A stretch of 64,000 nt of DNA from Deltaproteobacteria bacterium (GCA_040218735.1 JAVJQW010000047.1:79934-143933); one strand, 5' to 3'. Counted from the first letter of the stretch, positions 39,576-64,000 are shown. Program-made: numbers and translations. The notes: generated from the sequence alone by a model not told the origin.

Positions 39576-39679
39576 GGCCGCTCCGCCCTGATGCGATGTA
39601 CGCGCATATCCGCGTATCGGGCCGGCGGAAGTTAGGTTTTGGCCCGAGAGGTGTCAATGTCAGTATCATTTGGCGCTTT

Positions 39680-42600
39680 ATGAACCGCGCCGCCACTGGG
39701 GGCCTCGCCCTCGCGCTCCTCACACTCCTCGGGTGCGGCCGAGACGTGCTCGGCACCGGGGGCCAGAAGACCAACGAGCTGCGCATCCGGCCGGGGACGT
39801 TCGACCTCTACATCGGACAATCCTTCACGTTCGACGTGCTGCGCGTGAACGGCGCCGAGGAGACGAGCCTCCTCGGGGCCGAAGACCTCGCGCTGACCTC
39901 CAAGACCGAGGTCGTCACCGTCGGTAAGGATGGGAAGGGCACCGCGGTCGGCGCGGGCACGAGCTCCATCGCGGCGAGTTACCTCGGCCTCACCGGCGTC
40001 GCCTCCGCCACGGTCCGCAACGCGACACTCGACGCGATCGCGGTGACGCCGCCGATGGCCACCGTGGAAGTCGGCGGCACGCAGGCGCTGCAGGTCGTCG
40101 GCACGCTGAGCGACGGGAGCACGATCGACCTGACCGCCGCGGCGACCGGAACGCAGTACACCTCGTCGAGCCCCGAGGTCGCGACGGTGTCGGCGGGCGG
40201 CATCGTCACCGGCGTCGCGGGCGGCGAAGCGACGATCCAGGTCACCCACGACGGCCTCACGGCGCTCGCGACGATCCAGGTGCCGGGCGAGACGCAGAAG
40301 CTCGTCGCGATCGAGATTCGTCCGGCTTCGCTGCAGATGGCGGTCGGCGAAAACGCGCAGCTCGAGGTGATCGGTACGTTCGAGAGCGGCGGGACGTTCA
40401 ACCTGTTGCTCGACCCCGCGACCTACCCGCTCGCGCTGAGCGCTTCGGATCCGAACGTCGCGTCGATCAATATCGAAGGCGTCGTGCAGGCGCGCGCGCC
40501 GGGCATCTCGATCGTGCAGGCGCAGATCGACGGGCTGGTGGCGGTCGCGGACGTCGAGGTGCGCAGCGACGCGGAGCTGATCGACCTGATCGTCCCGCGC
40601 TCCGTCGTGGTGGCCCCCGGCGAGTCGGCGCCCGTGCGGGTCATCGGCCTGTTCTCGGACGGCTCCACCGCCGACATCACGATCGGCGCGGGGACCGGCT
40701 ACCAGATCATCGACACCCGCTTCGCGACCGTGACCGCGGCGGGCGTCGTCACGGGCGTGCGCGAGGGTCGGACAACGTTGATCGTCACGAACGGTCCGCT
40801 GACGCGCGACGTGCTCGTGGAGATCGACGAGGGTCGTGTGCTCGAGCGGCTGCTCGTCACGCCGCCGGCCATCACGATGCAGGTCAACGACGTCGTCCGA
40901 CTGCAGGTCACGGCGGTCTACTCGGACGGCTCGCAGACCGACGTCACCGGGTCGGCGATGTACCGGACCTCGCCCAACGCACCGGTCGCGGTGTCGACGA
41001 ACGGGTTCGTGCTCGGCCTGACGCCCGGCACCGGGAACATCGAGGTCTCCTTCGGCGGCATCGCGACGAACGTTCGCGTGGTCGTCGGTACGGCGCAGGT
41101 CATCGCCATCGAGATCAACCCGCCGGTCATCGACGTCCCCGAGGGCGACATCTTCCCGGTCGTCGTCGTCGCGTTCTTCGCGGACGGCACGGCGATGGAC
41201 GTCACCTTCGATCCCGGCACGCAGTACATCGTCGACGACCCGATGATCGCGCAGCACGACGGTGCCGCTGCGATCCTCGGGCTCAGCGCCGGCGAGACCA
41301 CACTCCGCGTGACCTTCGGCGGCGTCACGGGGACCGCGCCGATCATCGTGCTGCCGTCGATGCAGCAGCTCGTCGGCATCACGCTCAACGCGCCCAACAC
41401 GATCCCGCTCGGCCAGCGGCGGCCCTACACCGTGACCGCGCAGTTCTCGGACGGGAGCACGCAGAACGTGACGTCGATGGCATCCGTGCAGTCCTCGGCG
41501 CCGTCCATCGTCCGCGCGACGACCGGTGTCCTCACCGCGCTGAACCCGGGCAGCGCGACGATCAGCGTGTTCTTCATGGGCTTCGGCGACACCCGCGTCG
41601 TGCAGGTGACGTCGGTGAACGACCCGGTGGTGTCGATCTTCTGGTCGGTGCCGTCCGTGACGGTGCCCGTGAACGGCTCCGAGTTCGTCGAGCTGCTCGG
41701 CACGACGGCGTCGGGTGCGACGGTGAACCTGTCGAACGACCCGGCGGTGGTCATTGGCATCTCCGGCGGCATCAACGTCGCGCCGGCGCCGAACGCGTTC
41801 CTGATCACCGGCGTGACGAACGGACCGGCGCAGGTCACGGCGACGTTCAACGGCCTCGTCGCGACGCTCCCTGTCACGGTGACCGGCGGGACGACGGTGA
41901 TCGGTTTGCAGATCATCGCGCCCGCCACGCTGCCGGCGGGGACGACGGGGCAGCTGTTCGTGTTGGCGTTCTTCTCGGACGGCAACGTCCAGGACGTCAC
42001 GAACGATCCGGGCCTCACCATCACGACGATGGGCGGCGCGGTCGCGACGATGGGCTCGCTCATCATCGCGGTGCAGCCGGGGACGGGCACGATCCAGGCG
42101 TCCTTCGGCGGGGAGACGAGCTCCGTTCAGATCATCGTCACGATGGGCAACGACCCGGTCGTCTCGCTCGAGTTCGTGCCTCCGTCGCTGTCCCTCGGCG
42201 TCGGTGAGTCGGCGACGGTGCAGCTGTTCGCGACGCTGATGTCGGGCGCGGTCGTCGACGTCACGTTCGATCCGAACGTCAACTACAACGCGATGGGCCC
42301 GATCGACGGTATCCCGCAGGGCGGTGCCCTCCTGATCACCGGCCTGAGCCCGGGCATGGCGCAGCTGACGGCGTCGCTCGGCGGCCAGACGGCGCAGCTG
42401 CCGATCACGATCAGCAACTCGAACCCCACGGTCGTCGGCCTCATCCTGAACGCGCCGCCGAACCTCGACATGGGGATCCCGGCGACCTACCGGGTCATCG
42501 CGCAGTTCTCGGACGGCACGTCGGCGGACGTCACGAACGATCCGGGCGTGATGGTGTTCGTGCAGAACCCGATGATCTTCACCGCGGCGAACGGCGTGCT

Positions 42601-44710
42601 GACGCCGGTGTCGGTGGGGACGACGGGGCTCGGCGTCACGTTCATGGGTTTCGCGGCGATGCGGCAGATCACCGTGAACCCCAACAACAACCCGGTCATC
42701 GGGCTGCAGTGGGTGCCGGGGTCGCTGAACATCCCGGTCGGCCAGACGCAGAGCGCGCAGCTGTTTGGCGTGCGGATGGCGGGGCCGCCGATCGACCTGT
42801 CGCAGAACCCGGGCACCTCGTACACGACGACCGGCCCGATCACGATCGCCCCCGCGGTCGCGTTCGGCATGGACGTCACCGGCAACGCGTCGGGCGCCGC
42901 GACGGTGGAAGCTTCGTTCGGCGGGTTCTCCGCGACGCTGCAGGTCACGGTCGGCGCGGGCCGTACGTTGGTCGGCATCCGCGTCGAGCCCGCGACGAAC
43001 CTCAACCTCAACGTCGGCCAGACGCAGCAGCTCACGGTGATCGGTCTGTACAGCGACGGTACCGAGGAGACGGAGACCGGCGCGATCTTCCTGAGCTCGG
43101 ATCCGGGCATCGCTTCGGTGAGCCCGACGGGTCTGGTCACAGCCGTGTCCGGCGGTCAGGCGGGTGTGCTCGTGCAGCTCGGCGCGTTCGCGGACGTGGT
43201 GACGGTGAACGTCTCCTCGCCGGCGCCGATCATCATGTCGGTCAACCCGGACACGATCGCGACGGGTTCACCGACGACGCCGATCGCCGTGCTCGGCGCG
43301 AACTTCTCGCCGAGTGACACGATTCGCTTCAATGGATCGCCGCGACCCACCACGTTCGTGAACCCCGGGCGGCTGAACGGCGCCGTGCCCGCGGGCCTTC
43401 TCGCGAACCCGGGCACCATCACCGTGGACGTCTCGGGCCCGAACGGCGTGTCGAACGCGGTGACGATCCAGGTCGGCGACGCACCGAACATCACCAGCTT
43501 CTCACCGTCGAGTGTGATCGCGGGGAGCTCCGTCGAGGTCATCGCGGTGGGCTCGGGTCTGACCGGGCTGTCGTTCAACGCACCCGCGGGCCTCACGGTC
43601 ACGCTGATCAGCAGCGCGCCCGACGGCTCGTCGGCGCGGTTCCTCGTCGCGGCCGCGTCGAACATGATGGAGGGTGGGTACTCGATCGGCGTGTCGAACG
43701 CGTTCGGCACGGACACGATCATCATGGTGGTCCGCGCGCAGACGGGCCTGCCGAACCTCACCGTGACGAACGGGCAGACGATCACGCTCTCCGGCACCAA
43801 CGCGTTCAACACGATCACGGTGCAGACCGGCGGGCGCATCAACGGCGTCGGCAACGAGCCGCTGGCGCTCATCGCGTCGGGCGGCATCACGATCCGCGGC
43901 ACGATCGACGTCTCGGGCAACGACGGCGGCCCCGGCTTCACGGACCCGGCGGCGGGCGGCTCGGCCGGCCCCGGCGGCGCGGGTGGCGGCGGCGGCGGCG
44001 ACGGCAACGCACCCACCGGCGGCGTAGGCGGCGCGGGTGCGCCCACCGGCTTCAACGGCAGCGGCGGAAGCGGCGCGGGCACGCCGGCCGGTGACGGCGG
44101 TGGCGCCGGCGGCGGCGTGGGCGCCGCGGGCGGCTGCGGCGAAGGCGGCGGCGGCGGCGCGCTCGGTGGCGCGGGCGGCGACGGCGGCGGCGACATGGGC
44201 AACGGCAGCGGCGCGCCCGGCGGCATCCCCGGTCAGGGCTCGACGTTCTTCGCCGGCACCGGCGGCGGCGGCGCGACGACGTGCGGCAACAACTCCGGCG
44301 GCGGCGGCGGCGGCGGTGGCGGCTCGCTCATCCTGCAGTCGGCGTTCGGCGGGACGATCCTCGTCGACGGCGCGATCATCGCGGACGGCGGCGACGGCGG
44401 CGACGGGTTCTCCGGCACCGGCGGCGGCGGCGGCGGGTCCGGCGGTCGCGTGGAGATCCGCGCGCCCGGCGGCAACATCATCGTCAACGACACGATCGCG
44501 GCGCGCGGCGGAAGCGGCGGCAACGCCGACTTCGGCGACACCGGCGGCGGCGGTGGCGGTGGCGTGATCATCGTGACGGCGGTGCCCGGTGGCACGGTAA
44601 GCGCGGCGCTCGGGTTGTTGCAGACGTCGGGTGGCGCGTCCGGCATGTCGCTCGGCGGCGGGTTCTCCGGGACGGCCGGCGGCGCGGGTGTGGAGCAGGT
44701 GCTCCCCTGA
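39680..44710 (+). CDS. large lipoprotein adhesin: tandem Big_2-type Ig domains, IPT-like domains and Gly-rich C-terminus
   Basis: Lipobox LLGC; more than 10 repeats of about 90 aa with FSDG...DVT and SS.P.VA.V motifs. Confidence 0.8.
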   Translation: MNRAATGGLALALLTLLGCGRDVLGTGGQKTNELRIRPGTFDLYIGQSFTFDVLRVNGAEETSLLGAEDLALTSKTEVVTVGKDGKGTAVGAGTSSIAASYLGLTGVASATVRNATLDAIAVTPPMATVEVGGTQALQVVGTLSDGSTIDLTAAATGTQYTSSSPEVATVSAGGIVTGVAGGEATIQVTHDGLTALATIQVPGETQKLVAIEIRPASLQMAVGENAQLEVIGTFESGGTFNLLLDPATYPLALSASDPNVASINIEGVVQARAPGISIVQAQIDGLVAVADVEVRSDAELIDLIVPRSVVVAPGESAPVRVIGLFSDGSTADITIGAGTGYQIIDTRFATVTAAGVVTGVREGRTTLIVTNGPLTRDVLVEIDEGRVLERLLVTPPAITMQVNDVVRLQVTAVYSDGSQTDVTGSAMYRTSPNAPVAVSTNGFVLGLTPGTGNIEVSFGGIATNVRVVVGTAQVIAIEINPPVIDVPEGDIFPVVVVAFFADGTAMDVTFDPGTQYIVDDPMIAQHDGAAAILGLSAGETTLRVTFGGVTGTAPIIVLPSMQQLVGITLNAPNTIPLGQRRPYTVTAQFSDGSTQNVTSMASVQSSAPSIVRATTGVLTALNPGSATISVFFMGFGDTRVVQVTSVNDPVVSIFWSVPSVTVPVNGSEFVELLGTTASGATVNLSNDPAVVIGISGGINVAPAPNAFLITGVTNGPAQVTATFNGLVATLPVTVTGGTTVIGLQIIAPATLPAGTTGQLFVLAFFSDGNVQDVTNDPGLTITTMGGAVATMGSLIIAVQPGTGTIQASFGGETSSVQIIVTMGNDPVVSLEFVPPSLSLGVGESATVQLFATLMSGAVVDVTFDPNVNYNAMGPIDGIPQGGALLITGLSPGMAQLTASLGGQTAQLPITISNSNPTVVGLILNAPPNLDMGIPATYRVIAQFSDGTSADVTNDPGVMVFVQNPMIFTAANGVLTPVSVGTTGLGVTFMGFAAMRQITVNPNNNPVIGLQWVPGSLNIPVGQTQSAQLFGVRMAGPPIDLSQNPGTSYTTTGPITIAPAVAFGMDVTGNASGAATVEASFGGFSATLQVTVGAGRTLVGIRVEPATNLNLNVGQTQQLTVIGLYSDGTEETETGAIFLSSDPGIASVSPTGLVTAVSGGQAGVLVQLGAFADVVTVNVSSPAPIIMSVNPDTIATGSPTTPIAVLGANFSPSDTIRFNGSPRPTTFVNPGRLNGAVPAGLLANPGTITVDVSGPNGVSNAVTIQVGDAPNITSFSPSSVIAGSSVEVIAVGSGLTGLSFNAPAGLTVTLISSAPDGSSARFLVAAASNMMEGGYSIGVSNAFGTDTIIMVVRAQTGLPNLTVTNGQTITLSGTNAFNTITVQTGGRINGVGNEPLALIASGGITIRGTIDVSGNDGGPGFTDPAAGGSAGPGGAGGGGGGDGNAPTGGVGGAGAPTGFNGSGGSGAGTPAGDGGGAGGGVGAAGGCGEGGGGGALGGAGGDGGGDMGNGSGAPGGIPGQGSTFFAGTGGGGATTCGNNSGGGGGGGGGSLILQSAFGGTILVDGAIIADGGDGGDGFSGTGGGGGGSGGRVEIRAPGGNIIVNDTIAARGGSGGNADFGDTGGGGGGGVIIVTAVPGGTVSAALGLLQTSGGASGMSLGGGFSGTAGGAGVEQVLP

Positions 44711-53512: not shown

Positions 53513-54175
53513 ATGTCACCGAGAACGATCAAAATGGACGACGAGGTCTACTCGTACTTCCTCGACATTTCGGTTCGAGAGCACGACGTGCTGCGAAGGC
53601 TCCGCGAGGAGACGCAGGCGATGGAGCACGCGCGGATGCAGATCGCGCCGGAGCAGGGGCAATTCATGCGCCTGCTGGTAGAGCTGCTCGACGCCCGGCG
53701 AACGATCGAGGTGGGTACGTTCACGGGTTACAGCGCGCTCGCGACGGCGCTTGCGCTGCCGGAGGACGGGAAGGTGATCGCGTGTGACGTGAGTGAGGAG
53801 TGGACTTCGATCGGGCGTCGGTACTGGGAGGAAGCGGGGGTGGCTTCGAAGATCGACCTGCGGATTGGGCCGGCGAACGACACCTTGGATTCGCTCATCG
53901 CAGAGGGCGGCGCCGGTGAGTTCGACTTCATGTTCATCGACGCGGATAAATCGGGGTACCCGAGCTACTACGAGAAGGGTCTGGCTTTGCTACGCAAGGG
54001 TGGGTTGATCGGAATCGATAATGCGCTGTGGGGAGGTTCGATTGCCGACGCCTCCGACACGGGCGCAGACACCGAGGCGATTCGTGAGATCGATCGGCGC
54101 GTGCGCGATGACGACCGCGTCACTTCGAGCCTCGTCCCCATCGGGGATGGGTTGTTGCTCGCCCGAAAACGCTGA
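53513..54175 (+). CDS. class I SAM O-methyltransferase (COMT/CCoAOMT-like)
   Basis: [20 protein letters not shown] and PIGDG motifs. Confidence 0.92.
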
Positions 54176-54233
54176 GTTTCCGCAACGAATTTCAAACCCT
54201 TTCCTGTTGCATTCCAGGCTGGCCCCCCGCCAA

Positions 54234-54250
54234 CCTGAACACATGAACAC
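54234..54250. promoter_or_regulatory. putative Myxococcus-type LexA box at the intI promoter
   Basis: CCTGAACACATGAACAC matches 15/17 positions of the reverse complement of the M. xanthus LexA consensus as recalled; TTGCAT-N18-CAACCT promoter candidate overlaps it. Confidence 0.5.
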
Positions 54251-55295
54251 GATGCCTCCCCTGGCCCGCGGCAAGCGCGAGAGCGCCCCCACCGCGGCTC
54301 CGCTCCCGGACGACTCGGATCGCCCGCTCATGAAACAAGTGCGCGGAGCGATCCGCGTACGTCACTTCAGTCGACGAACAGAGGACGCGTACACCCGGTG
54401 GATTCGACGTTTCATTCGCTTCTCGGGCATGCGCCACCCCCGAGAGCTCGGGGCGGAGGACGTCGAGAGGTTCCTCACGTCGTTGGCGGAGGACCGTGGC
54501 GTCGCGGCGTCGACGCAGAACCAGGCGCTGTCGGCGCTCCTGTTCCTCTACGGCGAAGTGCTTCGGGTCGACCTGCCGTGGATGCACGAGATCGTCCGCG
54601 CCAAGCGGCCGCTCCGTTTGCCTGTGGTGCTGACGCGTTCGGAGGTGGAGCGAGTCCTGAAGGAGCTCCCGGATCCGGCGCGTCTGGCGTCGCACCTGAT
54701 GTATGGCGCGGGGCTCCGCTTGCTCGAGTGTCTGCGTTTGCGTGTGAAGGACCTCGACTTCGAGCGAAGCACGTTGGTGATTCGAGAGGGCAAGGGCGCG
54801 CGCGATCGGCGCACGGTCTTGCCGATGTCCTTGGCTGCGCCCCTTCGAAACCACCTGGTCACGGTGCAGGCGCAGCATGACGTCGACCTGGAGCGAGGTG
54901 CGGGTCATGTGGAGCTCCCAACGGCGCTCGCGAAGAAGTTCCCGAATGCCTCGCGCGACTGGAAGTGGCAGTGGGTCTTCCCGGCCACGCGAACTTACCG
55001 CCACCGAGAGTCCGGCGAGCACCGTCGCCACCACCTCCACGAGACGGTCGTCCAGCGCGCAGTCACCGCCGCCGGCCGAGCGGCCCACCTGGAAAAGCGC
55101 GTCACCTGCCACACCTTCCGCCACAGCTTCGCCACCCACCTCCTCGAGGACGGCTACGACATCCGCACCGTCCAGGAGCTCCTCGGCCACCGAGACGTCC
55201 GCACCACGATGATCTACACCCACGTCCTCAACCGAGGCCCCGGCGCCGTCAAGAGCCCCGCCGACCGCCTCGCCCCCTTCGAAAGCAAGGAGTAG
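54243..55295 (+). CDS. intI: integron integrase (tyrosine recombinase)
   Basis: S.STQNQAL.AL.FLY, YGAGLR..E, GKG..DR, IntI-specific patch (L.KK.P.A...W.WQWVFP...RRHH), [14 protein letters not shown]....TT.IY; start could be 54252 or 54330. Confidence 0.96.
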
Positions 55296-55395: not shown

Positions 55396-55438
55396 CTTGG
55401 ATCCCGCGATCTCCAAGACCGCCGACTTGGTGTTGGAC
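55396..55438 (+). other. putative attI site (core GTTGGAC 55432-55438)
   Basis: Core is the exact complement of R'' in the first attC; no attC hairpin upstream; short CCAAG/CTTGG inverted repeats; left boundary uncertain. Confidence 0.65.
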
Positions 55439-55452
55439 GGACGAGTCGACGA

Positions 55453-55869
55453 ATGTGGAATCCGACGCCATACCTGCTTGCCGTTGTCGTCCGGCTCAGG
55501 CAGTCCGCGCGGCTCCTTCTGCGATTCATCGTCGCCGCGACAGGCGTCACGGCTCTGGCCCTTTCGTGCATTCTCCTGCTGCGCGTCATCGTGTTCGATG
55601 CGGCTCTGGATGAGCCCCGCGCGTGCGCGCTCGCGAAGGAGCACGTCTCTGCCAGAGGTTTGCTTCCGGCGCGCTGCGGTCGCTTTGGTACAACGGATTC
55701 GGTCGGGAGCATCTGCGTCTACGATTCGCGTGGCAAACCCATCTTCCACGCGATGCTGTTCGGAGGGGCGCTACCATTTGAGGAGTGGCACGTCGACAAG
55801 TCGTGGGGCACTGGCGACTCGACAGTCACGAGCCACGAGTTTGCTCGTGGGATGTGCTCACCGGAGTAG
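55453..55869 (+). CDS. cassette 1: hypothetical membrane-anchored protein
   Basis: ATG 21 nt after the core; one TM; fills the cassette. Confidence 0.5.
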   Translation: MWNPTPYLLAVVVRLRQSARLLLRFIVAATGVTALALSCILLLRVIVFDAALDEPRACALAKEHVSARGLLPARCGRFGTTDSVGSICVYDSRGKPIFHAMLFGGALPFEEWHVDKSWGTGDSTVTSHEFARGMCSPE

Positions 55870-55963
55870 CTCTTGCGTTGGCGACGAACCGAGGTCGCGA
55901 TGGCTGCGCGTGCTTCGGTGCTTCGACCGGGCGTTCTAGCCAACCCAGTTGCCAAAGCGCGCC

Positions 55964-56027
55964 GTCCAACATGATGATGAAGACGGACAGGGGCTTCGCC
56001 CCTGCCGCTTATCATCGGGTGTTGGAC
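55964..56027 (+). repeat. attC 1
   Basis: GTCCAAC...hairpin with TTC loop...GTTGGAC. Confidence 0.92.
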
Positions 56028-56112
56028 GGACCAGAGGACGGATGTTGACAGCCCGACCTCGCTGCGCCGATCCTGTCCTGTCGCTCCGATTGGGCGACGA
56101 AAGGCAGGCCCA

Positions 56113-56688
56113 GTGTTCGTCTCAGATTCCAACGGAGCAATCTTGCACACCGGCGGCGGACTCTTCGATCTCCACCGTGTCTATCGAGACGCAGGCGTGG
56201 CGCTTCTATCGGATCTCCAAGTCCGAGTGCGAAACTCTGCTCCCGGAGTGCCGCGCCAGATCGTGACCGCGTTTAGCGGCCAGCAGTGCATTCCTATCCT
56301 CTTCCTCATGAGGCATTCGCTCGAACTGCAGCTCAAGATGATTCTCGCGCTCCTCGACGAACTCGATGGGGTCTCTCCGAAGAAGCGCGGCGAGCATCTC
56401 CTCAGCCTATACTGGGGCGAGGTGCAGCGACGCGCCGCCAGACACTTTCGAGACGACGAGCTCAAGAAGTACCTTTCACCCGAGTTCGAGTACATTACTG
56501 AGCAGTTGCGACCGCTCACGGACATCGACGACCGCGGCACCACCTTCCGGTACGAGGACCACGACCAGGCTATGCCATCCCTTGATATCGATGTGTTTGC
56601 AGACAGTTCAGCGGAGGTCTTCCAGACCCTCGACTACCTTGTCGATGCACTAGGGACATTTTGTGACCACAAGGCCGGACGCATATAG
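56113..56688 (+). CDS. cassette 2: HEPN-like domain protein
   Basis: P..F..RH.LEL.LK...H.L...W...D....FRY pattern. Confidence 0.6.
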   Translation: MFVSDSNGAILHTGGGLFDLHRVYRDAGVALLSDLQVRVRNSAPGVPRQIVTAFSGQQCIPILFLMRHSLELQLKMILALLDELDGVSPKKRGEHLLSLYWGEVQRRAARHFRDDELKKYLSPEFEYITEQLRPLTDIDDRGTTFRYEDHDQAMPSLDIDVFADSSAEVFQTLDYLVDALGTFCDHKAGRI

Positions 56689-56699
56689 TGACGCGGGCC

Positions 56700-56761
56700 G
56701 TCCAACAGGATGATGAAGACGGACGGGGCTTCGCCCCGCCGCTTATCATCGGGTGTTGGAT
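56700..56761 (+). repeat. attC 2
   Basis: GTCCAAC...GTTGGAT. Confidence 0.92.
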
Positions 56762-56862
56762 GGACCTGGCTATGGAGGGGATCGTGCCCCGACCTGCGTC
56801 AAGGTACAGGTGGGGCTGTTCCGAGTCTTCGCTTCGAGACGCTTCCGCGGTAACCAGGCACA

Positions 56863-57303
56863 GTGCGCCCGCTACTGCTCCTCGTGCTTCCCACGTTCCT
56901 CCTATGCTGCCAGATACCAACGAAGACTCAAGCCGTCGTTCTTAAGTTCGACCCTCCCGCAAGCGACCCGGTGTTTCGCGACTGTACGATCACGCTCAAC
57001 TGGACGGCGGTGGAACTCCTAAACCAATGCGGACCGCCAATCGACTCCTATCGCAGCGCGAAGGGAAGCGACGTCGTTTGTGTAGCCTACAAGAGCTACG
57101 CGCACTCGATCGCAGCGTCATCGGCGGTGGCTCCCTACTACGTCGTCTGCCTACGGCCCTGGTCGTACCCACGGAAATCCACGGAGACCACTCCGTTCTT
57201 GATACCTCTGATTCCGCCCGAGCAACTCCGCAACTACGTCGTCGAGTCGGTCTACGGGCTGCAGTCGATCCCGGGTACATTGACCTCCTCGACCCCGCGC
57301 TGA
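56863..57303 (+). CDS. cassette 3: putative lipoprotein
   Basis: Hydrophobic signal ending LLCC; stop just before attC. Confidence 0.55.
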   Translation: MRPLLLLVLPTFLLCCQIPTKTQAVVLKFDPPASDPVFRDCTITLNWTAVELLNQCGPPIDSYRSAKGSDVVCVAYKSYAHSIAASSAVAPYYVVCLRPWSYPRKSTETTPFLIPLIPPEQLRNYVVESVYGLQSIPGTLTSSTPR

Positions 57304-57317
57304 GATGATGCGCGGCC

Positions 57318-57381
57318 ATCCAACATGATGATGAAGACGGACGGGGGCTTCGCCCCCGCCGCTTATCATCGGGTGTTGGAT
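57318..57381 (+). repeat. attC 3
   Basis: ATCCAAC...GTTGGAT. Confidence 0.92.
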
Positions 57382-57733
57382 GGACGCGCCGCAGGGTGCG
57401 TACCCTCGAACCACCCCATCAACTTTGCGCAGAAGGGCTGCCGCTTGGGCCGTGCTGATGCGAACTCATCGTCTCGATCGACTCGCCGAGGACGCGCGAG
57501 CGCCCGGGAGGGCAGCGAACGCTGCTCGAGCCCGGAGCGCCGGCACAGCCAGCGCGCGCGGCGGCCGGACACTTCGTGCCTAATGGCGATAACTTGTGCC
57601 CGGCCTACGCGGGCAGGAACTCGGCGTCGCCTGGCGCCTTGCCCCGACCGCTCACGCTTGCGACTATGCGTGCGCCATCCAACAGGATGATGAAGACGGA
57701 CGGGGCTACGCCCCGCCGCTTATCATCATAGTG
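57376..57733 (+). other. cassette 4: apparently ORF-less, family A (near-duplicate of cassette 15)
   Basis: 358 bp; no convincing ORF; TTGCCC-N17-GACTAT at the 3' end. Confidence 0.65.
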
Positions 57734-57739
57734 TTGGGC
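57677..57739 (+). repeat. attC 4
   Basis: ATCCAAC...TAC loop...GTTGGGC. Confidence 0.9.
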
Positions 57740-57765
57740 GGACGAAGCGCGTGAGGAGTCGATCG

Positions 57766-58176
57766 ATGCACGCCGAGGTTGAGTATCTATTCCAACTGGT
57801 CAACGCGGGACTCCTGACCCACGCCGAACTACCCTCGAAGTTGCTCCACCTCGCCGCGACCAAGGAGCCTGAGGACGTCCTCCGAGGCGTTCCCGTGTGG
57901 GTCGCCGAACGTCTCCGCGACATCTGCTCGCGAGGGAGCGGGGACTCTCTTCGGTTCTATCCGACATGGGGGTGCGGAGTTGATCCCGACGAAGCCATGG
58001 ACCGCTACGACGCGGAAGCCGAGGCAGGCCTTCAAAGGCTGCGGGGCTACTTCGCGATTCGTGCAGTTGATGAGACGATGGACGAATCCGCTTCCGCGCG
58101 ACAGCCCGCCACGAACGAGGGACCATTCCGCAATCCCGAGCTTATGCGCGCCGCCCAACAGGATGATGAAGACTGA
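57766..58176 (+). CDS. cassette 5: hypothetical protein
   Basis: GAGGAG RBS; ORF ends inside attC 5. Confidence 0.5.
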   Translation: MHAEVEYLFQLVNAGLLTHAELPSKLLHLAATKEPEDVLRGVPVWVAERLRDICSRGSGDSLRFYPTWGCGVDPDEAMDRYDAEAEAGLQRLRGYFAIRAVDETMDESASARQPATNEGPFRNPELMRAAQQDDED

Positions 58177-58214
58177 CGGGGCTTCGCCCCGCAGCTTATC
58201 ATCGGGTGTTGGGT
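58153..58214 (+). repeat. attC 5
   Basis: GCCCAAC...GTTGGGT; compensatory CTG/CAG pair. Confidence 0.92.
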
Positions 58215-58228
58215 GGACGAGGACGAGG

Positions 58229-58705
58229 ATGACTGCCAGGAGACAAGCTCGGAAACGTTTCCACGACTTCTTTGCCAACTCCTCTATCGTTCAACGCGCG
58301 GGATTTGTCAGGGTCGCCACACCGCGCGGACTCGGCGGTTCCCGCTTCTTCACGCGGAGCTTGGGCACCGGATTCCTTCACCTCGAGATCCAGATCGACG
58401 ATCTTGTCGTCATCGCGCGTGCTGCTATCTCCGAGAAACAAGTACGCGACATCGATCCAATTGCTGCAGGGATCCCTGAGCCCTGGCCGCCGAAGCAGCC
58501 ATGCGACTACTTCTTCCATTTCCATGCCCTCACGTCGAACACCACCAGCCCCTGGAGGATCGGCCTCGCCTTGCTCGACGACCGATCGTTACAGCGGCTC
58601 TCCTCGCGGATTATCGAGGCCGTGAACAACATCGTTCTCCCCGAAGCAAAGCGTCTGCTTGAGCCATCTATCGATGCTCCCTCCGTAGCCCCCGAGGAGC
58701 CATAG
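58229..58705 (+). CDS. cassette 6: hypothetical protein
   Basis: GAGG RBS; ORF fills the cassette. Confidence 0.5.
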   Translation: MTARRQARKRFHDFFANSSIVQRAGFVRVATPRGLGGSRFFTRSLGTGFLHLEIQIDDLVVIARAAISEKQVRDIDPIAAGIPEPWPPKQPCDYFFHFHALTSNTTSPWRIGLALLDDRSLQRLSSRIIEAVNNIVLPEAKRLLEPSIDAPSVAPEEP

Positions 58706-58790
58706 GCTGTCCGAGAGACCTCCGAGCACGATGCCTTCAAGGACCTGGGAGTGAGGCAACCAAACCCCAACGCTTGCGCTCGTGCGCGCC

Positions 58791-58854
58791 ACCCAACATG
58801 ATGATGAAGACGGACAGGGGCTTCGCCCCTGCCGCTTATCATCGGGTGTTGGGC
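58791..58854 (+). repeat. attC 6
   Basis: ACCCAAC...GTTGGGC. Confidence 0.92.
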
Positions 58855-58929
58855 AGACGGACCGAGACCTCTAGCCCATTCCAATTCCAATGGTTGACGT
58901 GAGCGATCTCTCGGGAAGGAACGCGATGT

Positions 58930-59337
58930 ATGGGAGATACGATTTGGGTCCAGACCAACGACAACGGACTCGCCGACGGCGACGACTACGATCACAGCTT
59001 CATGGTTCGCCTCGAGAAACCCCTTGAGCGCATCGCGAAGGACGCGGGACTCGATCCTCTTTCGGTGTTCTACGATGGCACAGCCATGGAGGAAGCCTAC
59101 GCGGACGAGTTCGGAGACGATCTGCCGCGTTCCGAACCCAATTGGTCTGATGCGAAGGTCGGCCTTGCGGTGATTACTAAGCTGTCAAAGGTGATCTCCG
59201 ACGACCCGGCGAAGCTGGGCGCATCCGTCGACCAGCCGTCGGTTTCGCGACTGGTCGAAGAACTTGAGCACGCGAAGAAGGTATTGAGGAGCGCAGTAAG
59301 GAAGAAGCGACAGTTCCGACTCCTGCTTGTCCCGTGA
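58930..59337 (+). CDS. cassette 7: acidic hypothetical protein
   Basis: AAGGA RBS; globular composition. Confidence 0.65.
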   Translation: MGDTIWVQTNDNGLADGDDYDHSFMVRLEKPLERIAKDAGLDPLSVFYDGTAMEEAYADEFGDDLPRSEPNWSDAKVGLAVITKLSKVISDDPAKLGASVDQPSVSRLVEELEHAKKVLRSAVRKKRQFRLLLVP

Positions 59338-59391
59338 CGACCTCAAGGCCTCCAAGTGTACTCCGCTCCGAGGTGGTTGCCGATGCGCGCT

Positions 59392-59453
59392 GCCCAACAG
59401 GATGATGAAGACGGACGGGGCTTCGCCCCGCCGCTTATCATCGGGTGTTGGGT
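59392..59453 (+). repeat. attC 7
   Basis: GCCCAAC...GTTGGGT. Confidence 0.92.
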
Positions 59454-59936
59454 GGACAACCTCGAGCCGCCGGAAGGAATGGCCCCGCTTTTTCATCTTG
59501 CGCGAGGTCGAGTTTGCTTGCTGCTCGACCTATCCCAGAGTGCAGCTCCCATTCTGACGGCGGACCTCGTCGAGCGAATGTCTCGGGCCCGCTCACCGAA
59601 CGCCGAGAAGAAGCCGCACGGCCCGACCTCGCCGTTGAGCCATCCTCGGCGAGCACAGTGCACCACCACGGCCCATCTCCCATGATGGTCCAAACCGCCG
59701 AGGCGCGCGCGCGGAGCACAGCGCCAACTGCCACCGCGAAGCCACGAGCGAACGCCGACAGCGCGCATTCCCCACGAGGATGAGGCCCAAGTACCTGAGC
59801 TCGAAGACGGCGAGCTCCAGGGAGGAGCTTTTCGTAGCGGACCTCGACCGACCCGAGCTGCTATCATCCACCGCCGAGCCACCCAACAGAATGATGAAGA
59901 CGGACGGGGCTTCGCCCCGCCGCTTATCATCTGGTG
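59448..59936 (+). other. cassette 8: apparently ORF-less, family B
   Basis: Ends homologous to cassettes 10 and 12; TGcTATCAT at 59859-59867. Confidence 0.55.
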
Positions 59937-59942
59937 TTCGGC
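59881..59942 (+). repeat. attC 8
   Basis: ACCCAAC...GTTCGGC. Confidence 0.9.
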
Positions 59943-60003
59943 GGACGAACCGGGGCCCCTCGCCCATTCCATCTCGGCTCACGGCGCGAGCCGCAGTATA
60001 GTA

Positions 60004-60360
60004 ATGACCATGCGAGGCGACCTGAACTACTACCTCATCATCAGGAACCTGGTTCTCGGCCTCGCTCTCTTCCTCGGCGTGCCGCTGATCCTCAATCTCG
60101 GCGGACTCTTTGTCTGGACGGTCTTCTTCGGCAATCCGCCCTCGTTCTTCTCCGGGCTGACCTTTGCCGTTGCCGGACTGTCATACATCGTAGCTTTCGG
60201 GGGATTCTCGTTCGCCTGGGTCCTCAACGAAGACCAGCAGCGTAGAGACTTCCGTATCAACGAACTCGAATCGAAGATCGTACTGCTCGAGTCTGCGCTT
60301 GAGAAGATAGAACGGGCGTCGGAGGCTAGCTCGAGCGGAAGCCGCATCGTTCCCCTGTAG
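60004..60360 (+). CDS. cassette 9: two-TM membrane protein with coiled-coil tail
   Basis: Two hydrophobic helices; INELESKI..LE heptads. Confidence 0.65.
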   Translation: MTMRGDLNYYLIIRNLVLGLALFLGVPLILNLGGLFVWTVFFGNPPSFFSGLTFAVAGLSYIVAFGGFSFAWVLNEDQQRRDFRINELESKIVLLESALEKIERASEASSSGSRIVPL

Positions 60361-60422
60361 AGACCCGTCGAGGACCGGGAAACGTGATAGGAGACATGTC
60401 GAATGCGGTGCCAATGCGCGCC

Positions 60423-60485
60423 GCCGAACAAGATGCTCAAGGCTGACGGGGGCTTCGCCCCGCAGCTTAGCATCGCGTGTTGGGT
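60423..60485 (+). repeat. attC 9 (divergent, compensatory L-box changes)
   Basis: GCCGAAC...GCTCAAG/CTTAGC...GTTGGGT. Confidence 0.9.
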
Positions 60486-61001
60486 AGACAACCTCCAACG
60501 GCCCGTGAAGATGTCATGGTTTTCGGGAACACGAGTGTCCGAGCTTCCTGGCCAGAACGTGGCCCGACAGGGCAGTGCGAACACTGGTGAGCGAGGTGCC
60601 GACCAGTCCCGCGCGAGACGCCCCGTGCAGCCCGAACGCCGCACCCCGAAGGACGGACATCCCCGGCGAACGTCCATCCAGCGCGCGACCGAATCTCGGA
60701 TCCAACTTCGCCCCGCCGCATCTCCCGCGCGCGACAACCAGCCCACTCCAACCCACAAGCCACGCGCAACCGCCGCAGCGCACGCGGCCTCGCAGAGCAC
60801 CAACTCGCATAGGGCCTCAAAGAATCGCGCTGCAGACCCACTCGACGCCGCGGACCACGAATCAATCCTAAAGTGGAACGACGTGAAGAGCTCATCGGTG
60901 CAGACCTCGAGCCACCGCACCTGCTATCATCCACCGCAGAGCTACCCAACAGGATGATGAAGACGGACAGGGGCTTCGCCCCTGCCGCTTATCATCGGGT
61001 G
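60480..61001 (+). other. cassette 10: family B (only a low-complexity ORF, 60511-60957)
   Basis: Ends homologous to cassettes 8 and 12; TGcTATCAT at 60922-60930. Confidence 0.5.
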
Positions 61002-61007
61002 TTGGGT
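60944..61007 (+). repeat. attC 10
   Basis: ACCCAAC...GTTGGGT. Confidence 0.92.
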
Positions 61008-61080
61008 GGACCTACCGCCGTAGAACCGCATCTTTCAACGATGTCGTTGACATCTGGTCGTCAAAGAACAGAATAGAAGC

Positions 61081-61617
61081 ATGAATGCAAGCGGATATTT
61101 CAAGACATGGGCTGTAACGCTCCTAATTGCAGTCGTGTATGCTGTCTTTCTGATCCCGGTCGCGCTCCTTCCCCTGGATTCGGCATTTGCTAGCCAGAGC
61201 GAAATCTCAAAGGACCAAGTCATTGCGATCGCCCGCATCATAGTATTTGTCTCCGTCTTGCCAATCGTTCCACTGATTGCTGTCCTCTTTGGCGGCGCAG
61301 GCGGTGTCATCGCCGGTACCGCTGCCGAAGGCATCGGGGCGAAAGCAGAGCGCCGGGCGAGGCTTTGGTCTGGCAGATATGGCATCGTTCGGTCGCTCGC
61401 TCTGAGCCTATTCTTCTTCGTCTTCACTCCTCTCAAGTCCGAAAGTCTCTCACATGACTGGGGAACGATGACGGCCCCGCACATCTTGGGGTACCTGGTC
61501 CTCTTGACGTCCGTTATCCCCTTCGCTGCCTGGTACTTCGCAAGACCCGAAGGCTCGACCGGCTTCTGGTATAGTTCTGTGCGAAATGGAGTAGATTCAT
61601 CCGGCCACCCAACATGA
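61081..61617 (+). CDS. cassette 11: four-TM membrane protein
   Basis: Lower GC; four hydrophobic segments; stop inside attC 11. Confidence 0.6.
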   Translation: MNASGYFKTWAVTLLIAVVYAVFLIPVALLPLDSAFASQSEISKDQVIAIARIIVFVSVLPIVPLIAVLFGGAGGVIAGTAAEGIGAKAERRARLWSGRYGIVRSLALSLFFFVFTPLKSESLSHDWGTMTAPHILGYLVLLTSVIPFAAWYFARPEGSTGFWYSSVRNGVDSSGHPT

Positions 61618-61668
61618 TGATGAAGACTGACGGGGCTTCGCCCCGCAGCTTATCATCGGGTGTTGGGC
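61607..61668 (+). repeat. attC 11
   Basis: ACCCAAC...GTTGGGC. Confidence 0.92.
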
Positions 61669-62117
61669 CGACTGCCTCGAACCTCCGATATTGATGGACC
61701 TTCTTGGAGAATGCGCGACGCGTCGTCGTCGGGAGATCATTCCGGGACTGAAATTGCCGTTCAGCTACTGCCGTTGGGAGCCCCGTCGTGGGGCCATGCC
61801 GCCGTGCCGCGGTCTCAGCGAGCTGCCCACTCGAGCGAACCCCGAGGCGAGCAAGGTCCACGCCGCCGTTGCGTGCCCTCATGCGAGCGCACAGACCCTC
61901 CTCTCTCGAACGCCCCCAGCAGCCTCTCCCAACGCATCGCCACGGCACGACCGCCACCCTGAGCCAAAGACACCGCCGTGCGGGGCCGCGCAGCGTCCCA
62001 AAGGACCAACTTGCGGAAGACCTCGACCAACCGAATCCGCGATCATCCAACGCAGAGCGGCCCAACATGATGATGAAGACGGACAGGGGCTTCGCCCCTG
62101 CCGCTTATCATCGGGTG
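61663..62117 (+). other. cassette 12: apparently ORF-less, family B
   Basis: Ends homologous to cassettes 8 and 10; the only long ORF runs through the attC. Confidence 0.5.
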
Positions 62118-62123
62118 TTGGGC
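62060..62123 (+). repeat. attC 12
   Basis: GCCCAAC...GTTGGGC. Confidence 0.92.
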
Positions 62124-62173
62124 AGACCAATGCGGAGAGCGTGTTCTCCACCTCGAAGCGCGGTAGGTAGGGC

Positions 62174-62644
62174 ATGGGCCTTCGCGAAGGGAGTTTCGGT
62201 CGGATGAGGGCAAAATATGTCGAGTTACAAATCGTCTCGCGCTCCGACGAACAACGCATCGGATCGGACTTCCGCGTCGGCCGCATCCTGCTCGCCAAGC
62301 ATTTTCGCGCCTCCCAAATTGCATCGATCGACGTGGATCCTAGATTCGCACGCCAGCTCTTGCTTCGGGAGGAATCCGACTTCGCCTCGGGGAGAGTGCC
62401 CCTGTTCGTATGCGAGTGTTGTGCGGATCTCGAATGCGGTGCGCTCACCGTCGCGGTTGAGCGGAGAGACCAAGCGATCCTCTGGAGGGACTTTGGCTAT
62501 GAAGGTCACGACGGACGGACGCCCACCGCGAGCGATGAGATAACGCGAACCGGCCCGTTCGTGTTCGACCGCGTACAGTACGACTCCGTCCTCACTACGT
62601 ATGCGAAAACGAGAAAGAGTTGCTCAGGGACTGGCCAACGATGA
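62174..62644 (+). CDS. cassette 13: Cys-cluster hypothetical protein
   Basis: R.PLFVC.CC.D..CG...V.......W.DF...GPF.FD..QY pattern; start uncertain. Confidence 0.6.
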   Translation: MGLREGSFGRMRAKYVELQIVSRSDEQRIGSDFRVGRILLAKHFRASQIASIDVDPRFARQLLLREESDFASGRVPLFVCECCADLECGALTVAVERRDQAILWRDFGYEGHDGRTPTASDEITRTGPFVFDRVQYDSVLTTYAKTRKSCSGTGQR

Positions 62645-62657
62645 GATGATGCGGGCT

Positions 62658-62719
62658 GCCCAACATGATGATGAAGACGGACGGGGCTTCGCCCCGCCGC
62701 TTATCATCGGGTGTTCGGC
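62658..62719 (+). repeat. attC 13
   Basis: GCCCAAC...GTTCGGC. Confidence 0.92.
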
Positions 62720-62771
62720 GGGCCAGAGTCACAGCCAAAGAGCTTTGAAGTTCCGGGTCCTCGGCGTGCCT

Positions 62772-63353
62772 CTATGGGTTTACGACCACGAGATCGGCTC
62801 CAGGAGTGCCCGGGCACTGCCGAACCTTGATAATCCACGTGACGTAGTACGTTGCTGGTCGCGATCTGTGGTTGTGGCTTCCGGACCACTTAACAGGATG
62901 GCTGTGGTAATCGCCTTGCGATCCGAACTGGGCGCGCTCCCGTCCATTGCTCTCCTTCCCGACGTCGGAGGTGGCTCGAACATCAATGTTCACCTTGGTA
63001 TCTTCGGTGCGCGGCTGGCCTTCGAATCGCCCAGTCAGCGGAATGGGAGGACTACTCTGCAATCTTCTCCATCCAGCGAGGTATCGCGCATTCTGCTTTC
63101 CTCGGTTGAGATTAGGGACGATTACATTGTAGGCAGGCGTAGCACCTTGCGCGGGGATTCTAACTGTCTGACCATTCGCTCGTACCCAGCAATCACCACG
63201 AAATCTCGAGGCGGCGTTAAGGGTTCCCCGATGACCGCTGTAGATCGCCTCATCCCAGGCCATAATGGAACCCACAGGCGGAGCTTCGGCAAGCACCGGA
63301 GAGGAATGAGCGAGGACGCCAAACAGGATGATGTAAGCGAAGGATCGATTCAT
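62772..63353 (-). CDS. cassette 14 (antisense): secreted protein with phage tail-collar-like domain
   Basis: Signal ..SPVLA; PVGSIMAW...W..ANGQ...PNL...RP....V.WIIK. Confidence 0.6.
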   Translation of the reverse strand: MNRSFAYIILFGVLAHSSPVLAEAPPVGSIMAWDEAIYSGHRGTLNAASRFRGDCWVRANGQTVRIPAQGATPAYNVIVPNLNRGKQNARYLAGWRRLQSSPPIPLTGRFEGQPRTEDTKVNIDVRATSDVGKESNGRERAQFGSQGDYHSHPVKWSGSHNHRSRPATYYVTWIIKVRQCPGTPGADLVVVNP

Positions 63354-63483
63354 AGTGGAGTTACTACCCGCGGACCAACATATCTGCAAGGGATGGGCAC
63401 GATCGCGCGATGAGCAGTGGTATGTGTCAACAATCCTTAGACCTCAGGAGACCCGATCTGGGGCATTTGCGAGAGCGACGGCC

Positions 63484-63544
63484 GCCGAACATGATGATGA
63501 AGACGGACGGGCTTCGCCCTGCCGCTTATCATCGGGTGTTGGAT
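63484..63544 (+). repeat. attC 14
   Basis: GCCGAAC...GTTGGAT. Confidence 0.9.
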
Positions 63545-63896
63545 GGACGCGCCGCAGGGTGCGTACCCTCGAACAACCCCATTAACTTTGCGCAGAAGGG
63601 CTGCTGGTTTGGCCGTGCTGGTGCGAACTCATCGTCTCGATCGACTCGCCGAGGACGCGCGGGCGCCCGGGGGGGCAGCGAACGCTGCTCGAGCCCGGAG
63701 CGCCGGCACAGCCAGCGCGCGCGGCGGCCGGACACTTCGTGCCTAATGGCGATAACTTGTGCCCGGCCTACGCGGGCAGGAGCTCGGCGTCGCCTGGCGC
63801 CTTGCCCCGCCCGCTCACGCTTGCGATTATGCGTGCGCCATCCAACAGGATGATGAAGCCGGACGGGGCTACGCCCCGCCGCTTATCATCATAGTG
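63539..63896 (+). other. cassette 15: apparently ORF-less, family A (near-duplicate of cassette 4)
   Basis: 358 bp; about a dozen substitutions versus cassette 4; TTGCCC-N17-GATTAT. Confidence 0.65.
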
Positions 63897-63902
63897 TTGG
63901 AT
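63840..63902 (+). repeat. attC 15
   Basis: ATCCAAC...TAC loop...GTTGGAT. Confidence 0.9.
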
Positions 63903-64000
63903 GGACAGGGGCCCGAGTCGATCTTCGATTCCGAAACTGAGATAGCGTGAGCGTCGATGTGTGTACTGCGTGTTGCCGGAGACGACCTCCGTCCTGACGA

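What the first reader, a model, noticed from the sequence alone, without database searches (positions are those of the whole stretch)
55432..63906. Extended cassette-end pairing with a conserved bulged base outside the R box
Seen in all 15 complete cassettes: the first 9 nt from GTT are the exact reverse complement of the 9 nt ending in AAC at the same cassette's end (e.g. GTTGGGCAG/CTGCCCAAC, GTTGGGCCG/CGGCCCAAC, GTTCGGCGG/CCGCCGAAC). Position 9 is always G, position 10 is unpaired (A in 15 of 16 starts), position 11 is always C pairing with G, and position 12 usually covaries. Known: attC models define 7-bp R boxes with extrahelical bases on the L side. Inference: an extra determinant fully formed only in the excised circle, which could favour integration over excision or be a footprint of cassette creation. 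I do not know of a description of this.
Basis: partly seen in the sequence, partly recalled or inferred. Interest (0 to 1): 0.72.

Follow-up and report, generated by a model that had tools for sequence, protein, structure and literature searches.

The report
Integron cassette-end pairing with a bulge
The two ends of each gene cassette in this bacterial integron pair with each other beyond the textbook 7-base box, which is a known general property of integron cassettes; the only unusual part is one conserved unpaired base inside that extra pairing.

Summary
The window holds a chromosomal integron: intI at 54021-55295, the attI crossover at 55432, and 15 complete cassettes. In 15 of 15 cassettes the first 9 nt equal the reverse complement of the 9 nt ending in AAC. 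Position 10 is unpaired (A in 15 of 16 starts). Position 11 pairs in 15 of 15 and position 12 in 13 of 15. No shuffle of partners out of 100,000 reached these counts.

The claim of novelty mostly fails. Bouvier et al. 2009 (PMC2727003) state that self-pairing extends beyond the 7-nt R boxes to 9-11 consecutive nt for most cassettes. I found the same elsewhere:
- 29 of 46 adjacent attC pairs from 14 other genomes pair over 9 nt or more.
- 25 of 31 cassettes of a Gemmatirosa plasmid integron do so, most often over 11 nt.
- Four class 1 resistance cassettes pair over 8-12 nt.

What is particular here is a fixed G-A-C motif. It puts a one-base bulge on the R' arm, giving 9 bp + bulge + 2 bp, or 11 bp in all. 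I found no description of this bulge. It recurs sporadically in related integrons whose intI points the same way as the cassettes. Its function is untested. I rate it a minor variant of a known feature.

The parts
54021..55295 (+). intI, the integron integrase gene. The true start is probably downstream of 54021, because the family profile matches residues 104-417. [quoted passage not shown]
   Evidence: TIGR02249 integron integrase, 454.5 bits against a cut-off of 265. Nearest solved structure is 2A3V, VchIntIA, E 3.5e-87.
55432..55443 (+). attI/cassette 1 junction. G at 55432 is the G of GTT at the crossover. The first 12 nt of cassette 1 pair with 55960-55970.
55432..63906 (+). Cassette array: 15 complete cassettes of 308-777 nt and the start of a 16th. 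The array runs off the window end.
55960..56032 (+). attC 1, including the 11-nt R'' extension (end of cassette 1) and 12 nt of the next cassette's start. Bulged A of cassette 2 at 56030.
56696..56766 (+). attC 2 with extensions. Bulged A at 56764.
57314..57386 (+). attC 3 with extensions. Bulged A at 57384.
57673..57744 (+). attC 4 with extensions. Bulged A at 57742.
58149..58219 (+). attC 5 with extensions. Bulged A at 58217.
58787..58859 (+). attC 6 with extensions. Bulged A at 58857.
59388..59458 (+). attC 7 with extensions. Bulged A at 59456.
59877..59947 (+). attC 8 with extensions. Bulged A at 59945. Cassette 8 is one of the two without a pair at position 12.
60419..60490 (+). attC 9 with extensions. 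It is the most divergent inner sequence. Bulged A at 60488.
60940..61012 (+). attC 10 with extensions. Bulged A at 61010. Cassette 10 lacks the pair at position 12.
61603..61673 (+). attC 11 with extensions. Bulged A at 61671.
62056..62128 (+). attC 12 with extensions. Bulged A at 62126.
62654..62724 (+). attC 13 with extensions. The unpaired base of cassette 14 at 62722 is G, the only exception to A.
63480..63549 (+). attC 14 with extensions. Bulged A at 63547.
63836..63907 (+). attC 15 with extensions. Bulged A of the 16th, incomplete cassette at 63905.

Best explanation
This is the outer part of the R arm of the attC hairpins of a sedentary chromosomal integron.

Shown:
- IntI exchanges strands at G|TT. 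Everything from TT outward on the R' side therefore travels with the downstream cassette. The two halves of one R-arm duplex end up at the two ends of the same cassette and meet again only in the excised circle.
- The duplex is longer than the textbook 7-bp box here, as in most integrons. In this attC family it has 11 base pairs: 9 bp, then one unpaired base (A on the top strand, T on the recombined bottom strand), then 2 bp.
- Positions 4, 6, 7, 8 and 12 are free in sequence but always change together with their partner.
- Positions 9-11 (G-A-C, opposite C-G) are fixed.

Inferred:
- The pairing is kept because the bottom strand of the excised cassette must fold into a stable hairpin that gives the IntI subunit cleaving at the R box a half-site of about 11-12 bp. 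This is the arm length of the related Xer recombinases, which I recall and did not test.
- The bulge is a family-specific interruption of that arm, on the arm opposite the classical extrahelical bases. The invariance of its base and of its neighbours suggests it is tolerated or read by the cognate IntI. No effect on recombination has been shown.
For: - Integron identity: IntI; 15 attCs; inner helix 99.6% paired with 3 compensatory pairs.
- Pairing of a cassette's own ends, and controls.
- Independence of the cassettes.
- Predicted bottom-strand fold of the circle form: 9 bp, position 10 unpaired and pairs 11-12 in 12 of 15. Mean ddG of circle against array is -4.8 kcal/mol.
- A helix of bounded length is general. 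Among 46 adjacent attC pairs from 14 other loci the perfect run is >=9 in 29, >=11 in 21 and >=13 in 1. The two flanks of one attC reach >=9 in only 3 of 102.
- Gemmatirosa: the run is exactly 11 in 16 of 31 cassettes, >=9 in 25 of 31, and never above 8 across one attC in the array.
- Class 1 cassettes blaVIM-1, aadB, blaIMP-1 and aac(6')-Ib4: runs of 11, 12, 8 and 12.
- The total of 11 pairs in the window equals the modal 11 of Gemmatirosa.
- Literature: 9-11 consecutive complementary nt for most cassettes (PMC2727003, passage read).
Against: - No experiment or structure bears on positions 8-12 in any integron that I could read.
- The covariation beyond the bulge rests on one variable pair (position 12, 13 of 15, three pair types) in one array of about 13-14 independent cassettes. 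I could fetch no second array of this attC family.
- Zero mismatches at five variable positions is also what a process that creates cassettes with perfect arms would leave, with no selection on folding.
- Fixed G-A-C could serve double-stranded attI recognition rather than the hairpin.
- Fold energies are nearest-neighbour predictions for naked DNA.
Confidence: 0.7

Rival explanations
1. Historical footprint only. Each cassette was created with a perfectly complementary outer arm by whatever process makes cassettes. The complementarity has simply not decayed, and no selection acts on the extended helix or the bulge.
For: There are 0 mismatches in 135 cells at positions 1-9. Selection acting through compensatory mutation might be expected to leave some half-changed intermediates. 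The same clean pattern is seen in Gemmatirosa, with exactly 11 nt in 16 of 31 cassettes.
Against: - The inner attC is about 87% identical across the 15 sites, yet five outer positions differ between cassettes, always on both arms. So the arms diverged within one family while keeping their pairing.
- The helix stops at a defined length in unrelated families: >=13 nt in 1 of 46 pairs. This looks like a functional boundary.
- Most differences are transitions that pass through tolerated G-T intermediates. In-array pairs include G-U/U-G types.
Confidence: 0.12
2. The fixed G-A-C at positions 9-11 of every cassette start is a sequence-specific contact for IntI on double-stranded attI. The right arm of attI is supplied anew by whichever cassette is first in the array. 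The unpaired A in the hairpin is an incidental consequence.
For: - Positions 9-11 are invariant while their neighbours 8 and 12 vary freely. That pattern indicates a sequence constraint, not only a pairing constraint.
- The attI junction at 55432 is followed by the same motif.
- A conserved A-C also follows the helix at cassette starts in Gemmatirosa.
Against: The opposite arm keeps C and G invariant exactly where they pair with G9 and C11, and position 12 covaries across the bulge. A purely double-stranded reading does not predict either. The two readings are not exclusive.
Confidence: 0.18
3. The bulge with its two outer pairs is a dedicated extra determinant that forms only in the excised circle and biases the system towards integration over excision.
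For: Circle-form hairpins are predicted to be more stable, mean -4.8 kcal/mol. Position 10 unpaired with pairs 11-12 formed appears in 12 of 15 circle folds against 5 of 15 array folds.
Against: - The stability gain comes from own-end complementarity, which is general to integrons. It does not come from the bulge.
- The bulge and its two flanking pairs are invariant, so they are also available in the array.
- Related families manage with an uninterrupted 11-12 bp arm.
Confidence: 0.1
4. Chance or conserved-sequence artefact. The starts and ends look complementary only because all attC flanks share a consensus.
For: Six of the eleven pairs are invariant and would match in any combination.
Against: At the variable positions, a cassette's own partners match in 60 of 60 cells (positions 4-7), 15 of 15 (position 8) and 13 of 15 (position 12). 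Shuffled means are 42.4, 8.7 and 5.1. Of 100,000 shuffles, 0, 16 and 0 reach the observed values.
Confidence: 0.01

Closest known systems
attC (59-base element) R''/R' boxes with extended self-pairing, as stated in Bouvier et al. 2009, PLoS Genet (PMC2727003), citing Rowe-Magnus 2003 and Sundstrom 1991
   Same: RYYYAAC/GTTRRRY boxes, crossover at G|TT, and complementarity of a cassette's own ends running past the 7-nt boxes to 9-11 nt. The window has 9 consecutive nt and 11 pairs in all.
   Different: The helix is interrupted by one conserved unpaired base at position 10 of the R' side, flanked by invariant G-C and C-G pairs. The passage I read speaks only of consecutive complementary nucleotides.
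Classical extrahelical bases of attC (G and T on the R''-L'' arm)
   Same: Single unpaired bases in an otherwise paired hairpin, conserved in identity. The window's attCs also have three classical ones spaced 4 nt apart.
   Different: The position-10 base lies on the opposite arm (R' side, 5' arm of the bottom strand) and outside the R box rather than between the L box and the loop. No role in synapsis is known for such a position.
Integron of Gemmatirosa kalamazoonensis KBS708 plasmid 1 (NZ_CP007129.1; L080)
   Same: IntI is 61% identical. intI is transcribed towards the array. The DNA is G+C-rich. Own-end pairing of 11 nt is the mode. A conserved A-C follows the helix. The first classical extrahelical base is G on the top strand.
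   Different: The attCs are 86-90 nt long and of another sequence family. The arm is uninterrupted in most cassettes. Only 5 of 31 show 9 bp followed by A-C, with one further pair in all five and a second pair in one.
Treponema-type integrons with intI transcribed towards attI (PMC3607928, passage read)
   Same: intI and the cassettes point the same way.
   Different: The host phylum is different. I did not examine Treponema attC flanks.
Binding arms of Xer-type tyrosine recombinases (about 11 bp; recalled, not from a call)
   Same: The arm length counted outward from the cleavage site is about 11 bp. IntI is a Xer relative (XerC/XerD models match).
   Different: Xer sites are double-stranded and sequence-specific. 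The attC arm is formed by folding one strand, and its outer part is free in sequence.

Membership tests
Integron (intI + attI + attC cassette array) | Integron-type tyrosine recombinase | tested here: met
   TIGR02249, 454.5 bits against a cut-off of 265. 2A3V IntI4 is the best solved relative.
Integron (intI + attI + attC cassette array) | Array of attC sites on one strand, each with RYYYAAC ... GTTRRRY boxes enclosing an imperfect hairpin | tested here: met
   15 sites, all on the + strand, 53-56 nt from AAC to GTT. A structural scan recovers 15 of 15, with 1 other hit in 64 kb on both strands. The inner helix is 99.6% paired with 3 compensatory pairs.
Integron (intI + attI + attC cassette array) | Unpaired central spacer and extrahelical bases on the R''-L'' arm | tested here: met
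   Folds show an asymmetric spacer and three single-base bulges spaced 4 nt apart on the 5' arm of the top strand. Single bulges number 41 on that arm against 2 on the other.
Integron (intI + attI + attC cassette array) | Crossover at G|TT, so that the bases after GTT belong to the downstream cassette | tested here: met
   The variable bases after GTT match the end of the same cassette in 15 of 15. They match the adjacent upstream attC in only 6-13 of 15. This is inferred from sequence. No recombination was observed.
Integron (intI + attI + attC cassette array) | intI transcribed divergently from the cassettes (classical layout) | tested here: not met
   intI and the cassettes are on the same strand, with intI pointing at attI. 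This atypical layout is known from Treponema (PMC3607928). It is not a defining feature in current usage.
Extended R''/R' self-pairing of cassettes (Bouvier 2009) | 9-11 consecutive complementary nt between the two ends of one cassette | tested here: met
   9 consecutive nt in 15 of 15.
Classical extrahelical base (EHB) | Located on the R''-L'' arm, between the R box and the terminal loop | tested here: not met
   The position-10 base is on the R' arm and outside the R box. It should not be filed as an EHB.
Classical extrahelical base (EHB) | Contacts an IntI subunit in the synapse | not testable with these tools
   This needs a structure or binding assays with the cognate IntI.

The most novel reading that the evidence does not exclude
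In the clade of integrons whose intI points at the array, a single unpaired base on the R' arm (T on the recombined strand, 9 nt outside the cleavage site, clamped by fixed G-C and C-G pairs) is a fourth structural determinant read by the cognate IntI. It would mark the outer edge of the cleaving subunit's half-site and tune how well excised circles are captured. The window's attC family would be the case where it has become obligatory.
Probability: 0.13. Interest if true: 0.55.

Novelty: new variant of a known kind. Interest (0 to 1): 0.27.

Why it matters
If the bulge is functional, attC recognition would include a feature outside the region that current attC models and detection tools cover, since they stop at the 7-bp R box. 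Synthetic attC design would then have one more parameter. As it stands, the array mainly gives a clean natural example of two known facts: the R arm of attC is about 11-12 bp long, and its outer half is inherited with the cassette's 5' end. That matters for predicting attC folding, because folding an attC as it sits in an array underestimates the stability of the circle form. Here the mean shortfall is about 5 kcal/mol.

Tried and rejected
- Rfam at gathering thresholds gave no match in the window.
- A looser structural attC scan was too noisy and shifted some boundaries. I used it only after conditioning on an own-end match at positions 4-7: 99 of 1396 candidate pairs were kept. I then added an unconditioned count on strict hits.
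- The window's attC core motifs were absent from the 83 fetched loci. Only chance hits with 3 mismatches appeared.
- The attC with its flanks found nothing in the plasmid collection.
- The IntI-based scan of genome contigs returned no close relative. The best was 64% identical, although a 96% identical protein exists (P0002). No second array of this attC family was examined.
- The papers cited for the 9-11 nt statement (Rowe-Magnus 2003, Sundstrom 1991) and Johansson 2004 are not held. I read only the citing sentence.
- Term searches within five attC papers found no passage on an unpaired base outside the R box: PMC5371416, PMC7439510, PMC3053210, PMC2811028, PMC11641012. Neither did the library searches. 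This is not proof of absence from print.
- A start-side bulge is not a general feature: 6 of 98 cassettes paired with their own end, against 29 of 584 start-end pairs taken from different cassettes.
- I considered the register without a bulge and rejected it.
- Pfam found nothing in 10 cassette ORFs.
Full report
WHAT IS THERE

The last 10 kb of the window is a chromosomal integron.
- An ORF at 54021-55295 (+) matches the integron-integrase model TIGR02249 at 454.5 bits, against a cut-off of 265. Its nearest solved relative is VchIntIA, 2A3V.
- 137 nt after its stop codon, at 55432, lies a GTT followed by the same 11-nt motif that opens the cassettes.
- A pattern search on both strands finds 15 attC sites, all on the + strand, 53-56 nt from AAC to GTT.
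- Upstream genes are ordinary chromosomal ones: molybdopterin oxidoreductase, O-methyltransferase, alpha-amylase, kinases.
- intI points towards attI and the cassettes. This is the atypical layout described for Treponema (PMC3607928, passage read).
- Cassette ORFs, the asymmetry of the unpaired spacer and the side on which single-base bulges fall all make + the top strand.

THE OBSERVATION

I compared each cassette's start with the reverse complement of its own end.
- Positions 1-9 are identical in 15 of 15.
- Position 10 has no partner: A in 15 of 16 starts, G in cassette 14.
- Position 11 pairs in 15 of 15.
- Position 12 pairs in 13 of 15, with three pair types.
- Positions 13-16 are at background, 2-5 of 15.
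- Without a bulge, positions 10-16 match in 0, 5, 2, 1, 2, 4 and 2 of 15.

Five positions vary between cassettes (4, 6, 7, 8 and 12). At these, a cassette's own partner matches in 73 of 75 cells. In 100,000 shuffles of partners:
- None reached 15 perfect 9-mers (mean 2.2).
- 16 reached the observed count at position 8.
- None reached the observed count at position 12.

The R'' of an attC against the start of the next cassette, which is the attC as it sits in the array, matches at positions 4, 6, 7, 8 and 12 in 11, 13, 6, 8 and 5 of 15. The cassette bodies are unrelated except 4/15 (96%) and a 48-nt piece of 8/10. The covariation is therefore not inherited through duplicated cassettes.

STRUCTURE

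I aligned the bottom strands of the 15 attCs as they lie in the array.
- The inner helix is 99.6% paired, with three compensatory pairs.
- The outer helix is 87.9% paired counting G-T wobbles. In Watson-Crick terms that is 133 of 165 cells, against 163 of 165 for own ends.

I folded the bottom strand with 14-nt flanks under DNA parameters.
- The circle form gives 9 bp, an unpaired position 10 and pairs 11-12 in 12 of 15 cassettes.
- The circle form is on average 4.8 kcal/mol more stable than the array form, range -11.3 to +2.9.
- On the recombined strand the unpaired base is a T on the 5' (R') arm, two bases outside the RYYYAAC box. The three classical extrahelical bases sit on the other arm.

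IS THE EXTENSION SPECIAL? NO.

Literature. The Introduction of Bouvier et al. [quoted passage not shown] Neither cited paper is held.

Survey. I fetched 79 loci around IntI relatives and located attCs with a structural scan that recovers 15 of 15 window sites.
- Among 46 adjacent strict hits in 14 loci, the perfect own-end run is >=9 in 29, >=11 in 21 and >=13 in 1.
- The two flanks of one attC reach >=9 in only 3 of 102.
- In a larger but conditioned set (98 unique cassettes from 29 loci, kept from 1396 candidate pairs because positions 4-7 matched), own-end identity falls from 79% at position 8 to 41% at position 12 and to about 21% from position 13 on.

Gemmatirosa. The plasmid integron of Gemmatirosa kalamazoonensis has an IntI 61% identical and the same layout. 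It has 32 attCs. The own-end run is exactly 11 in 16 of 31 cassettes and >=9 in 25 of 31, while no attC in the array exceeds 8.

Class 1 cassettes. Four clinical class 1 cassettes give runs of 11, 12, 8 and 12.

The extended arm is thus general and ends at about 11-12 nt.

WHAT IS PARTICULAR

The interruption is the unusual part. In the window the arm is 9 bp + 1 unpaired base + 2 bp. That is 11 pairs, the same total as the modal uninterrupted arm of Gemmatirosa. Positions 9-11 and their partners are invariant while 8 and 12 vary and covary. This indicates a sequence constraint on G-A-C in addition to pairing.

A start-side bulge followed by at least 2 pairs is not general: 6 of 98 own pairs against 29 of 584 non-own pairs. 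It is more frequent on the side of the locus where intI points at the array, 4 of 22, than on the classical side, 1 of 67. Fisher p is 0.012, but the test is post hoc and the set includes some doubtful hits. In three of those four cases the bulged base is A.

In Gemmatirosa all five cassettes with a 9-nt run continue with A-C opposite a base that pairs with the C. Only one has a second pair.

I found no passage on an unpaired base outside the R box. I made term searches within five attC papers and four library searches. This does not prove it is unpublished.

HOW IT MOST LIKELY WORKS

Shown by sequence: the crossover at G|TT splits the R-arm duplex, so its outer R' half rides with the downstream cassette. 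The arm is complete only when a cassette's ends are joined.

Inferred: the arm is the half-site of the IntI subunit that cleaves in the R box. Its length of about 11 bp outward from the cleavage site matches the arms of the related Xer recombinases, which I recall and did not test. Complementarity is kept because the excised circle must fold its bottom strand to be captured at attI.

The bulge is a family-specific variant of that arm. Its fixed identity and fixed neighbours suggest that the cognate IntI tolerates or reads it.

Rivals:
- A footprint of cassette creation with no selection.
- G-A-C as a contact needed in double-stranded attI, whose right arm is always supplied by the first cassette.

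The predicted stability gain of the circle comes from own-end complementarity, which every integron has. It does not come from the bulge. The bulge and its flanking pairs are invariant and so are also available in the array.

VERDICT

The extended pairing is already known and general. The conserved bulge on the R' arm is a small, apparently undescribed variant resting on one array. Interest is modest.

LIMITS

- No second array of this attC family could be fetched.
- Fold energies are predictions.
- The attC scan in other loci misses sites and includes some false ones. This dilutes the own-end signal rather than creating it.

Noticed in passing
window 55968-63898 (all 15 attCs); L080, L002, L019, L027, L001 versus L038, L010, L013, L017: The outermost classical extrahelical base is G on the top strand, hence C on the recombined bottom strand, in 12 of 15 window attCs. 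The same holds for 30 of 32 Gemmatirosa attCs and for most arrays where intI points at the cassettes. In several classical arrays it is C on the top strand, for example 12 of 12 in L038. L009 and L021 are exceptions. Bouvier 2009 says the first extrahelical base is almost exclusively G on the bottom strand, and that replacing it by C costs about 2.7-fold.
   Followed up: partly
window, the 5-8 nt left of each R'' extension (e.g. 58144-58151, 59383-59390, 60414-60421): Many cassette ends carry a conserved motif resembling ATGCGCGC just outside the paired region. It has no complementary partner at the cassette start. Its purpose is unknown.
   Followed up: no
window 57375-57683 and 63538-63846: Cassettes 4 and 15 are duplicates: 96% identical over 274 nt, 308 nt long, with no convincing ORF.
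   Followed up: partly
window 59447-59887, 60479-60950, 61662-62066: By eye, cassettes 8, 10 and 12 share start and 3'-end motifs, but BLAST links only 8 and 10 (48 nt at 77%). They have no ORF with a clear coding signature. Cassettes 8 and 10 are the two that lack the pair at position 12.
   Followed up: partly
window 62772-63353 (-): Cassette 14 has its best ORF on the opposite strand to the array. It is 193 aa with a signal-peptide-like N-terminus and has no Pfam match.
   Followed up: partly
window 55432-64000: None of the 10 cassette ORFs submitted has a Pfam match at E <= 0.01.
   Followed up: yes
window 54021-54330: The intI ORF has about 100 residues upstream of the region matched by the family profile (residues 104-417). 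The 96% identical relative is 350 aa long. The real start is probably internal.
   Followed up: no
L080 21696-40313 (Gemmatirosa plasmid NZ_CP007129.1): Cassette starts carry a conserved A-C(-A-C) directly after the 11-bp arm, often followed by C-A-T a few bases on. One 293-nt cassette occurs three times and a cassette of about 755 nt twice. The record has no annotation in the collection.
   Followed up: partly
window 24885-28526 (-) and 39545-44710 (+): A 1213-aa protein combines a protein kinase domain with an nSTAND1 NTPase domain. A separate 1721-aa protein has Big_2 domains. Neither is related to the integron.
   Followed up: no
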